Source of the DNA: Ruegeria sp.
GTDB lineage: Bacteria; Pseudomonadota; Alphaproteobacteria; Rhodobacterales; Rhodobacteraceae
Length of the DNA stretch: 64,000 nucleotides
NCBI RefSeq assembly: GCF_028066395.1
Contig: NZ_JALCBM010000003.1
Coordinates: 9,703 to 73,702, forward strand
Direction of reading: 5' to 3'
Program-made: the position numbers and the translations under genes
The notes under the pieces: model-generated
Seen by the model: only the letters and a program-made list of their open reading frames with translations
Database searches by the model: none
Told to the model about the DNA's origin: nothing
Shown: positions 54,848 through 58,235 of the stretch, piece after piece
Position numbering within the stretch: the first letter of the stretch is position 1
How the letters are laid out: the number at the start of each line of letters is the position of its first letter

Positions 54848-55942
54848 CTATTCCTCGTCCTCCTCTTCTTCGATCTGGATGATGGTGCCTGCATCCAGCA
54901 GGGTCCGAATGGCGGCAACGACCTCGGACATGGCGTTTTCGGCTTCGGATTGTTTGACCTTGCCACGCTCTGTCACTTCTTCGCGCAGGTTGTCGGCCAT
55001 GCGGCCCGAGATGTTGGACAGAAGGAATTCGACCACTACGCGATCCTCGTCCGAGGCGGCCCCGGCCATGGCGGCCACCAGAACGGGTTGGTCCACCTCA
55101 CGCAGGATGGCGGGCACATCGCGGGGCTGAATGCGGGTCGGGATATGGGCGAAGATGAAGATGGATTTGCGCACCGTGTCGGCGAAATCCGCATCCTCTT
55201 CATCCAGCGCGGTCAGCAGCCCGTCGCGTGTATTGGCGGCCGACTGGTTCAGAATCGCGCCCACCCGCGCGCCGGGGCCATCCTTGAAGGCCGGGGTGGG
55301 ACGTTGGTCCAGTTGCGCAGCCAGCGACCAGCCGATCCGCTCCACCGCCTCGGGCGTGACATTGGCGGTTTTCGACACCGCATAGGTGATCCGCCGCGCG
55401 GTGGGGCCGGGGAGTTGCCCCAACAACTGCGCCGCCTTGGCGGTTTCCAGTTTCGAGAGCATGACGGCGGCGACCTCGGTGCTTTCGGCCTGCGCCATTT
55501 CGGCCAGATCCTCAACCGCGATTTCGCGCAGGCGTTGCCAGGGGTCACCGATCTGGCGCACCCCGGCCACCTTGCGCAGCCGCGCCGCCGTGGCGGGAGC
55601 GATCTTGCCGTTCACCGCGTCCAGCGCGCCCGCCAGCCCATGGGGAAAGGCCAGCCCTACACTGTCCAATGCATCGGCAAATTCGCGGGCCACCGCATCC
55701 AGCGTGACCCGATCCACCAGTCCCATACGCCCCAGCTGATGGGTCAGCTGTTCCTGTAGCGGGTCTGGCAGTTCCTCCAGCGGAATATCGGCCCCTTCGT
55801 TCAGCAGCAGCCGCACGATTACGGCGGCTTTCTGCGTTCGGCTGAGCGTGCGGGGGATGACCTGAGGGGCGTCATCAACCTGTTCAATGCCCGAGGCCTG
55901 CGCCCCGGGTATCATCTGTACCAATGCGTTCGTGTCCTGCAT
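54848..55942 (-). CDS. fliG: Flagellar motor switch protein FliG-like
   Basis: QKAAVIV N-terminus, E...AAVMLSKL middle domain, IFIF, and LSNISGRMADNLREE torque-helix region. Confidence 0.82.
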   Translation of the reverse strand: MQDTNALVQMIPGAQASGIEQVDDAPQVIPRTLSRTQKAAVIVRLLLNEGADIPLEELPDPLQEQLTHQLGRMGLVDRVTLDAVAREFADALDSVGLAFPHGLAGALDAVNGKIAPATAARLRKVAGVRQIGDPWQRLREIAVEDLAEMAQAESTEVAAVMLSKLETAKAAQLLGQLPGPTARRITYAVSKTANVTPEAVERIGWSLAAQLDQRPTPAFKDGPGARVGAILNQSAANTRDGLLTALDEEDADFADTVRKSIFIFAHIPTRIQPRDVPAILREVDQPVLVAAMAGAASDEDRVVVEFLLSNISGRMADNLREEVTERGKVKQSEAENAMSEVVAAIRTLLDAGTIIQIEEEEDEE

Positions 55943-56010
55943 CTGCCTGTCATGCCAAGTTTCGCGTCATGGGGCAGAATAGGGACAAGCGGGTAAAGAA
56001 ACCCTGAACC

Positions 56011-56553
56011 TTAGTAGCTGTAAGTCAGCCCGGTCTGGATCGCTTCGCGCAGCGAGGCCTCGGCCCAGGTGCCTTCGCCGCCACGGGCCTTGATCTCGCG
56101 CCACTGTGCGATGGCCAGATCGGTTTTCCCTTCCGTGACAAAGCCTTGCCCCATATAGCTGCGGGCCAGAATATTGTCGGGATTGGCTTCGATGGCGTTT
56201 TCGTAGAAGGCATTCGCCAGTGCCAGCTCACCCATTTTGCGGTAGGTAAAGCCCCAATAGGTCATCACGCGGTCATCGTTTTGATCCATGACGCGCAGGA
56301 TGTCCTGGGCGTGCTCGTATTGCCCGTCATAGGCCAGTTCGCGCACCGCATCATACAGTTGATCTTCGCTGAAATTGGTTTTGTTCGGCTTGACGCATTT
56401 ACCGGCGGCTTCGTCAAAGACGCGGCCAAACAGGCATTTCTTGGTGGTGTTGGTCGGTTTCGGCGGGTTGTTGTCACCGCCGCCTGCTGCATGAACTACA
56501 GGTGCGAAGGCAAAAGCCTGAAGGGCAATTGCAGAAGCGAATACAAGGCGCAT
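56011..56553 (-). CDS. Secreted TPR protein with N-terminal two-Cys motif
   Basis: Signal peptide (VHA), CLFGRVFDEAAGKC, then TPRs (YWGFTYRKMG..AIEANPDNILARSYMGQG); GGAG RBS. Confidence 0.87.
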   Translation of the reverse strand: MRLVFASAIALQAFAFAPVVHAAGGGDNNPPKPTNTTKKCLFGRVFDEAAGKCVKPNKTNFSEDQLYDAVRELAYDGQYEHAQDILRVMDQNDDRVMTYWGFTYRKMGELALANAFYENAIEANPDNILARSYMGQGFVTEGKTDLAIAQWREIKARGGEGTWAEASLREAIQTGLTYSY

Positions 56554-56657
56554 TTTCCTACTCCGTTCTCGGGGCTGCTTTCAAAATCATAAGCGTGATC
56601 TCTGAAAAAGCTAACAGCTGGACCGTCGCTTTTATTCACAAGTAGGAAAGTTTTTCG

Positions 56658-56810
56658 TCAACTGCTGGTAAGTTTCATGCAGCTTTTGGTGTCACTGTCC
56701 CAGAATGTGCCTTCCGCGCAGGATTGGGTCTGTTTGGAATGCCCGCTGCAGGCCAGCCCGACTGAGGCGGTGTAGATCAGGGCCAATGCACAGATTAAAG
56801 TACGGATCAT
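56658..56810 (-). CDS. Small secreted Cys-containing peptide (50 aa, absent from ORF track)
   Basis: Manual translation MIRTLICALALIYTASVGLACSGHSKQTQSCAEGTFWDSDTKSCMKLTSS*; strong AGGAG RBS 7 nt upstream; hydrophobic signal peptide. Confidence 0.85.
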   Translation of the reverse strand: MIRTLICALALIYTASVGLACSGHSKQTQSCAEGTFWDSDTKSCMKLTSS

Positions 56811-56874
56811 GGTGTTTCTCCTGTGCGGAAAATGCAGCCCTAGACTATCCGATTATTGACGATCTGGCAAAAGA

Positions 56875-56906
56875 AAGGCCCGGTCTGCGGGATGCAGCCG
56901 GGCCTT
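56875..56906 (-). terminator. Terminator downstream of purB
   Basis: AAGGCCCGG ... CCGGGCCTT hairpin followed on the minus strand by a T-rich tail. Confidence 0.7.
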
Positions 56907-56930
56907 GCCTTCGGTGATGCTGGGTTTGGC

Positions 56931-58235
56931 TTAGTCGCCAAACACCCGTGCAAAGATCGTGTCGACATGTTTGGTGTGGTAGCCGAGGTCGAATTTCTCT
57001 TCGATTTCCTCAGCGCTCAGCGCGGCGGTGACTTCGGCGTCACCCAGAAGTTCGGTTTTGAAATCCTTGCCTTCTTCCCAGACCTTCATCGCGTTGCGTT
57101 GCACCAGACGATAGGCGTCTTCACGGCTGACACCGGCTTGCGTCAGGGCCAGCAGCACGCGCTGGCTCATCACCAGACCGCGGAATTTGTTCATGTTGGC
57201 CAGCATGTTGTCGGGATAGACGACCAGCTTGTCGATCACGCTGGTCAGGCGCGACAGGGCAAAATCCAGCGTGACGGTAGAGTCGGGGCCGATGTTACGC
57301 TCGACGGACGAGTGCGAGATGTCCCGTTCATGCCAGAGGGCCACGTTCTCCATCGCAGGCACCACAGCCATACGGACCAGACGCGCCAGACCGGTCAGGT
57401 TTTCGGTCAGCACCGGATTGCGCTTGTGCGGCATCGCGGATGAGCCCTTTTGACCTTTCGAGAAGAACTCTTCGGCCTCCAGTACCTCGGTCCGCTGCAT
57501 GTGGCGGATTTCGATGGCGATGTTTTCGATGCTGCTGGCGATGACACCCAGCGTGGCGAAAAACGCGGCGTGGCGGTCGCGGGGGATGACCTGCGTGCTG
57601 ATCGGTTCGGGCACCAGACCCAGTTGATCGCAGACATGTTCCTCGACGCGTGGGTCGATATTTGCGAAGGTACCGACCGCGCCGCTGATCGCACCGGTGG
57701 CAATCTCAGCGCGAGCGTCGCGCATGCGGGACAGGTTGCGGTCCATCTCGGCGTAGAAACGCGCGAAGGTCAGGCCCATGGTGGTCGGCTCCGCGTGGAT
57801 TCCGTGGCTGCGGCCGATGCGGACGGTTTCCTTATGCTCATAGGCGCGGCGTTTCAGGGCGGCCAGCAGACCTTCGAGATCGGCGATCAGGATGTCGGCG
57901 GCGCGGGTCAGTTGCACGTTGAAGCAGGTGTCCAGCACGTCGGAAGAGGTCATGCCCTGATGCACAAAGCGCGCCTCGTCGCTGCCGACATGTTCGGCCA
58001 GATGGGTCAGGAAGGCGATGACATCGTGTTTGGTGACAGCCTCGATCTCATCAATGCGGGCCACGTCGAATTCCACGTCCTTGGCTTTCCACACGGCCTG
58101 TGCGTTCTCGCGCGGGATCACGCCCAGATCGGCCATCGCATCGCAGGCATGGGCTTCGATCTCGTACCAGATGCGGAACTTGGTCTCGGGCGACCAGATG
58201 GCAACCATTTCGGGGCGGGAATAGCGGGGAATCAT
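56931..58235 (-). CDS. purB: Adenylosuccinate lyase
   Basis: MIPRYSR, HDVIAFL, GRSHGIHAEP and GSSAMPHKRNP motifs. Confidence 0.98.
   Translation of the reverse strand: MIPRYSRPEMVAIWSPETKFRIWYEIEAHACDAMADLGVIPRENAQAVWKAKDVEFDVARIDEIEAVTKHDVIAFLTHLAEHVGSDEARFVHQGMTSSDVLDTCFNVQLTRAADILIADLEGLLAALKRRAYEHKETVRIGRSHGIHAEPTTMGLTFARFYAEMDRNLSRMRDARAEIATGAISGAVGTFANIDPRVEEHVCDQLGLVPEPISTQVIPRDRHAAFFATLGVIASSIENIAIEIRHMQRTEVLEAEEFFSKGQKGSSAMPHKRNPVLTENLTGLARLVRMAVVPAMENVALWHERDISHSSVERNIGPDSTVTLDFALSRLTSVIDKLVVYPDNMLANMNKFRGLVMSQRVLLALTQAGVSREDAYRLVQRNAMKVWEEGKDFKTELLGDAEVTAALSAEEIEEKFDLGYHTKHVDTIFARVFGD

What the first reader, a model, noticed from the sequence alone, without database searches (positions are those of the whole stretch)
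56011..56810. Hidden 50-aa secreted peptide shares a disulfide micro-motif with the adjacent secreted TPR protein
Seen: an ORF below the track cut-off (56810-56658, AGGAG RBS, signal peptide) contains C-AE-G-TF-W-D-SDTKS-C. The next co-oriented gene has C-LF-G-RV-F-D-EAAGK-C ahead of its TPRs. The spacing is identical: C-x2-G-x2-[FW]-D-x5-C. The peptide has one extra Cys at its predicted mature N-terminus (GLA|C), which is not a canonical lipobox. Established: similar spacing occurs in the C-terminal half of chitin-binding type-2/CBM14 modules. Inference: a periplasmic or extracellular two-part module in which the free hairpin mimics, competes with or partners the TPR-tethered copy (glycan binding, redox or signalling). 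A terminator separates it from purB, and fliG-like follows on the same strand.
Basis: partly seen in the sequence, partly recalled or inferred. Interest (0 to 1): 0.72.

Follow-up and report, generated by a model that had tools for sequence, protein, structure and literature searches.

The report
Three-cysteine microprotein beside stress-regulated TPR
A real, conserved 50-amino-acid gene, found in over half of the sampled genomes of this marine bacterial family, encodes a predicted exported three-cysteine hairpin peptide that likely budded off the front end of its neighbour, a predicted periplasmic TPR protein likely switched on by an envelope-stress sigma factor; the two probably work separately, and neither is likely to be the chitin binder that databases call it.

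Summary
Both ORFs, the RBS, the terminator and the shared C-x2-G-x2-[FW]-D-x5-C motif are there; the motif occurs only 3 times in the genome's six frames. The peptide is under purifying selection (dN/dS 0.12), has its own sigma70-type promoter and three invariant cysteines, and was found in 115 of 201 family genomes. It is not hidden: databases name homologues "chitin-binding/CBM14 protein" or, wrongly, "adenylosuccinate lyase". It is only the C-terminal half of CBM14 and lacks the chitin-binding aromatic residue (0 of 150).

The two-part module is only partly supported. 47 of 52 co-occurring pairs are adjacent, but 63 genomes have the peptide without the TPR. Outside the family, the hairpin-TPR sits before an ECF sigma/anti-sigma pair (65 of 80 loci) with no free peptide. 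The window's TPR has that sigma's promoter motif, kept in 48 of 49 genus members with the anti-sigma and in 3 of 10 without it. The same motif precedes sodC and yceI genes.

Best reading: the TPR is an ECF26-like envelope/oxidative-stress effector, and the peptide is a duplicated, constitutive thiol microprotein. Its function is untested.

The parts
56868..56913 (-). Intrinsic-terminator-like hairpin after purB (core stem 56906-56875, then TCTTTT)
   Evidence: -30.8 kcal/mol, z -4.7; not listed by the simple scan
56842..56870 (-). Predicted sigma70-type promoter of the peptide: TTGCCA (56870-56865), 17 nt, TAGTCT (56847-56842)
   Evidence: sequence; TT[GT]-N17-20-SBTAnnnT in 53 of 80 peptide upstream regions vs shuffled mean 2.3, max 8; TTGCC kept across the genus
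56818..56822 (-). AGGAG ribosome-binding site of the peptide
   Evidence: conserved in homologues
56658..56810 (-). 50-aa microprotein: predicted signal peptide (aa 1-20), invariant C21, C31, C44; predicted beta-hairpin closed by C31-C44
   Evidence: 3 Cys in 150 of 150; C-x12-C in 149 of 150; AF2 hairpin, mean pLDDT 72.6; dN/dS 0.12
56679..56720 (-). Hairpin motif in the peptide (C31-C44)
56613..56637 (-). Predicted ECF26-type promoter of the TPR gene, GAATA-N16-TGTT, ending 59 nt before the start codon
   Evidence: 48 of 49 genus genomes with the close anti-sigma, 3 of 10 without, 0 of 2 with a distant one; PWM rank only 56 (full) or 16 (core) of 122,300 sites
56011..56553 (-). 180-aa predicted exported protein: signal peptide, Pro/Thr linker, disulfide hairpin (C40-C53), compact TPR helical domain
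   Evidence: both Cys invariant in 47; pLDDT 93.6, pTM 0.86
56395..56436 (-). Hairpin motif in the TPR protein (C40-C53)
   Evidence: (strands E23-25 and E30-32 of the mature model)
56931..58235 (-). purB, upstream synteny anchor (not part of the module)
54848..55942 (-). fliG, downstream synteny anchor, likely with its own promoter

Best explanation
The small ORF is a conserved gene of this bacterial family whose predicted exported product, a 30-residue disulfide hairpin with one spare cysteine, likely arose by duplication of the front end of the neighbouring TPR gene and likely works on its own as a constitutive periplasmic thiol peptide, while the TPR protein is likely an effector of an ECF26-like envelope/oxidative-stress sigma factor. 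Shown: both genes are conserved; they occur separately; the peptide has three invariant Cys; a sigma70-type motif precedes the peptide; an ECF-type motif precedes the TPR and tracks the anti-sigma across the genus. Inferred: Sec export; a C31-C44 disulfide; C21 left free, because its CBM14 partner Cys lies in the missing N-terminal half (pairing pattern recalled). Inferred: C21, with the His and Met that usually sit in the loop after it, forms a disulfide-linked dimer or binds a soft metal such as Cu(I), buffering periplasmic thiol/metal stress. Inferred: on stress, the anti-sigma releases the sigma (own copy on contig C117), which transcribes the TPR gene, yceI and sodC. Adjacency of the two genes then mostly reflects tandem origin in a stable purB-fliG interval.
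For: Gene is real: 115 of 201 family genomes; dN/dS 0.12 over 25 genus CDS; promoter motif 53 of 80. Independence: 63 peptide-only and 16 TPR-only genomes; no free peptide in 80 outside loci. Common origin: profile match across signal peptide and hairpin; the TPR is far wider spread (Rhizobium, Pseudomonas, Enterobacterales) than the peptide (no clear hit outside the family among 301 class genomes); extra tandem peptide copies at the locus in L014, L020, L065, L073. ECF link: TPR-sigma-anti-sigma in 65 of 80 loci; motif in 47 of 80 of their upstream regions and in 26 of 30 genus ECF loci; before the TPR in 48 of 49 vs 3 of 10 genus genomes, 2 of those 3 incomplete; TPR in 19 of 28 anti-sigma genomes vs 49 of 173, peptide 17 of 28 vs 98 of 173. 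Stress theme: motif before sodC in 2 of 2 genomes and before yceI; cytochrome b561 directly upstream of the TPR in 14 of 80 outside loci. His in the loop in 116 of 150, Met in 92 of 150, either in 136.
Against: No experiment shows translation, export, oxidation state, dimerisation or metal binding. His and Met are not invariant. Across the family the ECF motif stands before only 2 of 50 TPR genes, and 13 of 15 TPR loci in genomes with an anti-sigma lack it, so ECF control is a genus-level claim. The window's site ranks only 56th by a PWM trained outside the family, and the bare motif occurs 23 times in the genome against about 15 expected. The second yceI has the motif in only 4 of 30 genomes. 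The sigma was not formally assigned to ECF26. Genomes are related, so the counts are not independent. 47 of 52 pairs stay adjacent and 11 have the reverse order, more than an idle relic needs. The direction of duplication is parsimony; the tree's deep branches are weak.
Confidence: 0.5

Rival explanations
1. The first reader's module: free hairpin and TPR-tethered hairpin are partners or competitors. The peptide would displace the tethered hairpin, or exchange a disulfide with it through C21, and so tune what the TPR binds.
For: 47 of 52 co-occurring pairs lie within 2 kb on one strand, 36 with the peptide first and 11 with the TPR first (counted by hand). In the TPR-first clade the peptide starts 21-110 nt after the TPR stop and the TPR has the sigma70-type promoter, so they are probably one operon. 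Co-occurrence odds ratio 3.6. Own-pair hairpin similarity is slightly above random (p 0.03) and hairpin charges correlate (rho 0.56).
Against: Each gene occurs without the other. They have different promoter types in this genus. The similarity excess is tiny (4.9 vs 4.7 of 17) and confounded by kinship; the window's pair shares 4 of 17. Stable purB-fliG synteny alone keeps neighbours together.
Confidence: 0.2
2. A minimal bacterial CBM14-type lectin: the peptide (perhaps as a C21-linked dimer) and the TPR hairpin bind chitin or another GlcNAc glycan for surface attachment.
For: Pfam CBM_14 score 22.1 bits, equal to the gathering cut-off; 138 of 150 members match at E<=0.01; the profile aligns all three Cys with CBM14 structures 8IN3 and 7BWE; database names say so.
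Against: Only profile positions 20-45 of 53 are covered. No aromatic residue at the CHIT1 Trp465 position in 0 of 150; Pro451 and Leu454 equivalents in 4 and 3 of 150 (residues from PMC5459812). The same hairpin is a generic repeat in unrelated proteins. The TPR copy is found in soil and enteric bacteria in stress-sigma operons.
Confidence: 0.12
3. The peptide is a signal or ligand for the periplasmic domain of the ECF anti-sigma, standing in for the TPR hairpin.
For: The hairpin-TPR is encoded in front of sigma and anti-sigma in 65 of 80 outside loci; the own genome has such a pair.
Against: The peptide does not co-occur with the anti-sigma: 17 of 28 vs 98 of 173. Most peptide-bearing genomes gave no anti-sigma hit.
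Confidence: 0.08
4. A function-less remnant of a TPR duplication, or a chance ORF.
For: The motif is short and common as a repeat elsewhere; about 70 of 201 genomes have neither gene.
Against: dN/dS 0.10 in the mature part; 3 Cys in 150 of 150; conserved promoter and RBS; pN<pS in 3047 of 3160 family-wide pairs.
Confidence: 0.02

Closest known systems
CBM14 / peritrophin-A chitin-binding domain (Pfam PF01607; CHIT1 ChBD, 8IN3, 7BWE)
   Same: Three Cys in register with the C-terminal half of the domain, G at C+3, aromatic at C+6, C-x12-C hairpin.
   Different: 30-residue mature peptide with 3 Cys rather than a roughly 50-70 residue module; N-terminal half absent; no aromatic residue at the Trp465 position; bacterial, stand-alone.
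ECF26 sigma/anti-sigma systems with a conserved gene at position -1 (S. meliloti RpoE1/E3/E4/E6, Pseudomonas PrtI; 'chitin-binding proteins' at -1 of ECF26s2 in the supplement of PMC7826278)
   Same: TPR gene in front of an ECF sigma and an anti-sigma with a weak N-terminal zf-HC2 match; promoter GAATA...GTT like the published GGAATAAA/GTT; cytochrome b561 and YceI neighbours as described for this group. The 'chitin-binding' -1 gene may be this hairpin-TPR (my inference; not checked).
   Different: Here the TPR gene has left the sigma operon and sits at purB-fliG, apparently still controlled in trans in this genus only; group assignment not run; no stand-alone hairpin peptide is described for these systems in what I read.
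Small peptide-binding TPR domains (CHIP, Hop, SycD/PcrH, YbgF)
   Same: Helical TPR fold (Foldseek best E 3e-3; VIA Z up to 14.8, rmsd 3.3 over 132 residues).
   Different: Identity 25% or less, no outstanding match; ordered N-terminal disulfide hairpin; below every NCBIfam cut-off.
Database entries 'carbohydrate-binding module family 14 protein', 'chitin-binding domain-containing protein', 'adenylosuccinate lyase' (50-55 aa, Rhodobacteraceae)
   Same: These are members of this peptide family.
   Different: Automatic names only; the lyase name is evidently carried over from the adjacent purB; no study found.

Membership tests
CBM14 (PF01607) | Profile match at the curated cut-off | tested here: met
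   22.1 bits vs cut-off 22.1; 138 of 150 members at E<=0.01
CBM14 (PF01607) | Whole domain with the full cysteine set (six-Cys pattern recalled; about 70 residues per PMC6128652) | tested here: not met
   Profile positions 20-45 of 53 only; exactly 3 Cys in 150 of 150 mature peptides
CBM14 (PF01607) | Chitin-binding aromatic after the hairpin (CHIT1 Trp465) and its Pro451/Leu454 pocket | tested here: not met
   Mapped from Gly453 and the C-x12-C spacing: aromatic 0 of 150, Pro 4 of 150, Leu 3 of 150
CBM14 (PF01607) | CBM14 fold | tested here: inconclusive
   AF2 gives only a two-strand hairpin, pTM 0.34; 32-residue model too small for the fold search
CBM14 (PF01607) | Binds chitin | not testable with these tools
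   Needs a binding assay
Bacterial lipoprotein | Lipobox [LVI][ASTVIG][GAS]C before the first Cys | tested here: not met
   1 of 149 homologues; the residue before Cys is often M, E, Q, Y or D
ECF26-type regulon member (TPR gene) | Family encoded next to an ECF sigma with a +1 anti-sigma | tested here: met
   65 of 80 outside loci; 5 of 9 non-purB family loci plus L077; not at the window's own locus
ECF26-type regulon member (TPR gene) | Promoter motif of the GAATA/GTT type, conserved and tied to the sigma system | tested here: met
   48 of 49 vs 3 of 10 in the genus; but 2 of 50 family-wide
ECF26-type regulon member (TPR gene) | Sigma factor classified as ECF26 by group HMM or tree | not tested
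   No ECF group models available; NCBIfam gave no match above a specific cut-off
ECF26-type regulon member (TPR gene) | Sigma-dependent transcription | not testable with these tools
   No RNA run was listed
TPR repeat protein | Helical TPR fold | tested here: met
   AF2 pLDDT 93.6, six long helices; all top fold hits are TPR domains; Pfam TPR hits below cut-off for this protein, above for relatives
Obligate peptide-TPR pair | Strict co-occurrence | tested here: not met
   63 peptide-only, 16 TPR-only, 52 both of 201; 0 of 80 outside loci with a free peptide

The most novel reading that the evidence does not exclude
A family-wide bacterial 'half-CBM14' microprotein, born from the front end of an ECF-controlled TPR effector, acts as a diffusible thiol switch: its spare cysteine exchanges with, or displaces, the hairpin tethered to the TPR, coupling a constitutive redox/copper sensor to a sigma-induced periplasmic superoxide-defence regulon (TPR, SodC, YceI, cytochrome b561).
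Probability: 0.15. Interest if true: 0.75.

Novelty: new variant of a known kind. Interest (0 to 1): 0.5.

Why it matters
More than half of the sampled genomes of an abundant marine family carry this microprotein, and databases mislabel it as a chitin binder or as adenylosuccinate lyase. That inflates CBM14 counts in roseobacter genomes (one such count is in PMC5259889; whether it is this gene was not checked). The promoter footprint gives a directly testable regulon (TPR, sodC, yceI) for an ECF sigma whose input is unknown. It also suggests that the 'chitin-binding' gene noted beside ECF26s2 sigmas is a hairpin-TPR. The locus is a clean candidate for birth of a small gene from the front end of a larger one.

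Tried and rejected
Complex prediction of TPR with peptide: no answer, score 0.00, no evidence either way. RNA runs: none listed. Fold search of the peptide model: no match at Z>=2; the model is too small to conclude. Fold searches of the TPR: generic TPR hits only. ESM Atlas: the peptide's own clusters (CBM_14 on 16-26% of members, or 'putative adenylosuccinate lyase') and TPR clusters. First ECF motif guess GGAAT..GTC failed (4 of 80); the working motif came from gapped k-mer counting on the outside loci. CtrA and Fnr boxes: not enriched; no CtrA-like match between TPR and fliG in 30 loci. Lipoprotein reading rejected. Missed diverged peptides: 40 fliG-upstream stretches from peptide-negative genomes gave one weak two-Cys candidate (L210). 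Order-wide search around G242 held one genome only. R. pomeroyi proteogenomic tables list neither SPO2306 nor SPO2307; the identity of those tags was not established. SPO2306 appears in an appendix table of PMC3390766, but I could not tie it to a condition. Literature searches found no paper on either gene. Earlier scan findings: nothing relevant. A search for longer, fused forms of the peptide in the 90% collection was not run; long repeat proteins with the hairpin were seen.

Full report
OBSERVATION. The minus strand reads purB, a hairpin terminator, a 50-aa ORF (56810-56658), a 104-nt gap, a 180-aa ORF (56553-56011) and fliG. The terminator folds at -30.8 kcal/mol, z -4.7. Both ORFs begin with a hydrophobic leader (judged by eye) and contain C-x2-G-x2-[FW]-D-x5-C. 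That motif occurs 3 times in 8.66 million six-frame residues of the own genome, twice in these neighbours, so the pairing is not chance.

THE PEPTIDE IS A REAL GENE. A 26-row profile hit 136 of 201 family genomes at E<=0.01. Some hits are TPR N-termini and 39 weaker matches were not listed; from the listed rows I counted 115 genomes with a free peptide. Forty fliG-upstream stretches from negative genomes yielded one weak extra candidate. Among 301 class genomes only the own genome gave a clear hit; two weak hits had no motif, and one family genome in that draw was not hit. In 150 aligned members the mature part has exactly three Cys; the last two are 12 residues apart in 149; Gly at C+3 in 148; His in the first loop in 116 and Met in 92; a lipobox in 1 of 149. 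dN/dS is 0.12 over 25 full-length CDS from 30 genus loci, 0.10 in the mature part. A TT[GT]-N17-20-SBTAnnnT motif lies before 53 of 80 peptides (shuffled mean 2.3) but only 5 of 47 TPR genes; I read it as a housekeeping sigma70 promoter from recalled alphaproteobacterial consensus. In 40 loci picked mostly from genomes without a TPR hit, none had a TPR within 3.5 kb, 35 had purB and 32 had fliG. AlphaFold gives a two-strand hairpin (mean pLDDT 72.6). Homologues are named 'chitin-binding domain', 'CBM14' or 'adenylosuccinate lyase' in databases; the closest named ones are Ruegeria proteins.

IT IS HALF A CBM14. The peptide reaches the Pfam CBM_14 cut-off exactly, over profile positions 20-45 of 53; 138 of 150 members match, and all three Cys align with CBM14 structures. 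Passages of PMC5459812 name Trp465, Pro451 and Leu454 as the high-impact chitin-binding residues of CHIT1. Anchoring on Gly453 and the 12-residue spacing puts Trp465 two residues after the last Cys; 0 of 150 peptides have an aromatic residue there, 4 have the Pro and 3 the Leu. The hairpin is also a generic repeat in large unrelated proteins, and three TPR homologues carry an internal duplication of it. It should not be filed as CBM14. That the first Cys lacks its partner rests on the recalled CBM14 disulfide pattern.

THE TPR PROTEIN. It was found in 68 of 201 family genomes and 61 of 61 genus genomes. The model is confident, with the hairpin ordered (pLDDT 93.6, pTM 0.86); fold hits are generic TPRs. 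Its wider family of small exported TPRs mostly lacks the hairpin. A scan with a hairpin-bearing relative kept the best 80 of 87 loci, from Rhizobium, Pseudomonas, Enterobacterales and others. All 80 have the hairpin; 65 are followed by an ECF sigma and anti-sigma; the 7 loose motif hits in other frames had no leader and were dismissed by eye. Cytochrome b561 lies directly upstream in 14 of 80. The supplement of PMC7826278 (passages only; file cut when stored) lists 'chitin-binding proteins' at position -1 of ECF26s2 and gives GGAATAAA/GTT as the group's promoter. The hairpin-TPRs score weakly on CBM_14, so they may be those proteins; this was not checked.

CO-OCCURRENCE. Of 201 genomes, 52 have both genes, 63 the peptide only, 16 the TPR only and 70 neither. 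By hand, 47 of the 52 pairs lie within 2 kb on one strand, 36 peptide-first and 11 TPR-first. Five of the six sampled TPR-first loci form one well-supported clade (61 rows, TPR part only, L028 left out); there the peptide starts 21-110 nt after the TPR, probably as an operon. The two profiles align over leader and hairpin (probability 97.9). In 33 pairs the own-locus hairpins share 4.9 of 17 positions against 4.7 for random pairs (BLOSUM permutation p 0.03; kinship not corrected); the window's pair shares 4. The anti-sigma was found in 28 of 201 genomes: 19 of 28 have the TPR against 49 of 173, whereas the peptide is indifferent, 17 of 28 against 98 of 173.

AN ECF PROMOTER BETWEEN THE TWO GENES. 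Gapped k-mer counting upstream of the outside TPRs gave GAATA-N16-[TC]GT[TC] in 47 of 80. The window has it at 56637-56613, 59 nt before the TPR start. The own genome has an ECF sigma/anti-sigma pair on contig C117 with the motif before a divergent YceI-like gene; 26 of 30 genus ECF loci have it. Across 61 genus genomes the motif precedes the TPR in 48 of 49 with the close anti-sigma, 3 of 10 without (two of the three are 74% and 82% complete) and 0 of 2 with only a distant one. The conserved blocks flank a variable spacer, and the seven losses carry several different changes, though relatives are not independent. A second, sigma70-like -10 element nearer the start survives those losses. Other motif sites in the own genome precede sodC (kept in the only other genus genome with sodC, 2 of 2) and a second yceI (4 of 30). 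Controls: 1 of 30 before the peptide, 0 of 30 before fliG. Against: family-wide only 2 of 50 TPR genes have the motif; the bare motif occurs 23 times in the genome against about 15 expected; the window's site ranks 56th of 122,300 by the full PWM and 16th by its core, and was not among the top 25.

FLAGELLAR LINK. In the supplement of PMC12363192 (table rows), the P. inhibens hypothetical gene between purB and fliG is expressed (logCPM 4.3) and unchanged in a ctrA mutant (log fold 0.05), while fliG falls by 2.4. Whether that gene is the peptide or the TPR is unresolved. A conserved element lies before fliG in the seven genus loci printed. luxRI cassettes also insert between purB and fliG in some roseobacters (PMC3824088 passage), so the interval accepts unrelated genes.

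MECHANISM. Most likely (0.5): the TPR is a periplasmic effector of an ECF26-like envelope/oxidative-stress system. After it settled at purB-fliG, its front end was duplicated into a stand-alone peptide, which gained a third Cys and a constitutive promoter and was kept more often than the parent. Its spare thiol, usually flanked by His and Met, would dimerise or bind a soft metal. The regulatory part is well supported in this genus; the peptide's chemistry is inference only. Rivals: direct partners (0.2), glycan binder (0.12), anti-sigma ligand (0.08), relic (0.02).

LITERATURE SEEN. Passages: PMC3824088, PMC7693213, PMC4046655, PMC12363192, PMC5459812, PMC6128652, PMC6180224, bioRxiv 2019.12.11.873521, PMC5259889, PMC3390766. 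Supplement rows or passages: PMC12363192, PMC7826278, PMC3305630 (its main text had none of my terms). No whole paper was read. Ten searches found no study of either gene; subscription papers, including the CBM14 evolution papers I recall, are not covered.

VERDICT. A real, mislabelled, family-wide microprotein next to a homologous hairpin-TPR. The partner model is weak; the new and testable result is the sigma-linked promoter and its small stress regulon. New variant of a known kind; interest 0.5.

Noticed in passing
G000:C117 (L127:1459-3395): ECF sigma and anti-sigma pair divergent from a YceI-like exported protein, with the GAATA-N16-TGTT motif in between; close anti-sigma in 49 of 61 genus genomes.
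   Followed up: yes
G000:C51 (L369:262-1020): sodC with signal peptide, 52 nt behind the ECF motif; split in the assembly by a run of N with a duplicated stretch; found in only 2 of 61 genus genomes, both with the motif.
   Followed up: partly
L014, L020, L065, L073: Tandem extra hairpin peptides between purB and the TPR or fliG, some with only two Cys (three copies in L014).
   Followed up: partly
L015, L019, L029 (TPR N-terminus): The hairpin carries an 18-residue internal duplication of the W-D-x4-K unit between the two Cys.
   Followed up: no
L063 (G197:C1): Two near-identical peptide copies 8 kb apart, away from purB-fliG.
   Followed up: no
L070 (G190:C1): A second peptide copy next to a molybdopterin oxidoreductase, a cytochrome c and a resolvase/transposase.
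   Followed up: no
L129-L164 (Rhizobium): The TPR-ECF operon is divergent from a type III polyketide synthase and an isoprenylcysteine-methyltransferase-like gene.
   Followed up: no
L097, L103, L109, L112, L116: Hairpin-less relatives of the TPR, with a C-terminal C-x3-C, often lie beside adenylate/guanylate cyclases or 2Fe-2S-cyclase fusions.
   Followed up: no
window 55942-56010: Conserved non-coding element (TTTCTTTACCC...TAxTCTGCC) before fliG in the seven genus loci printed; fliG is CtrA-dependent in P. inhibens, but my CtrA pattern did not match.
   Followed up: partly
G552:C15:341334-350987: Four identical-scoring anti-sigma copies at 2,978-nt spacing: tandem amplification or assembly artefact.
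   Followed up: no
P0016, P0019, P0020, P0061, P0074: Large proteins of unknown origin with many tandem C-x2-G-x2-W-D-x5-C repeats.
   Followed up: no
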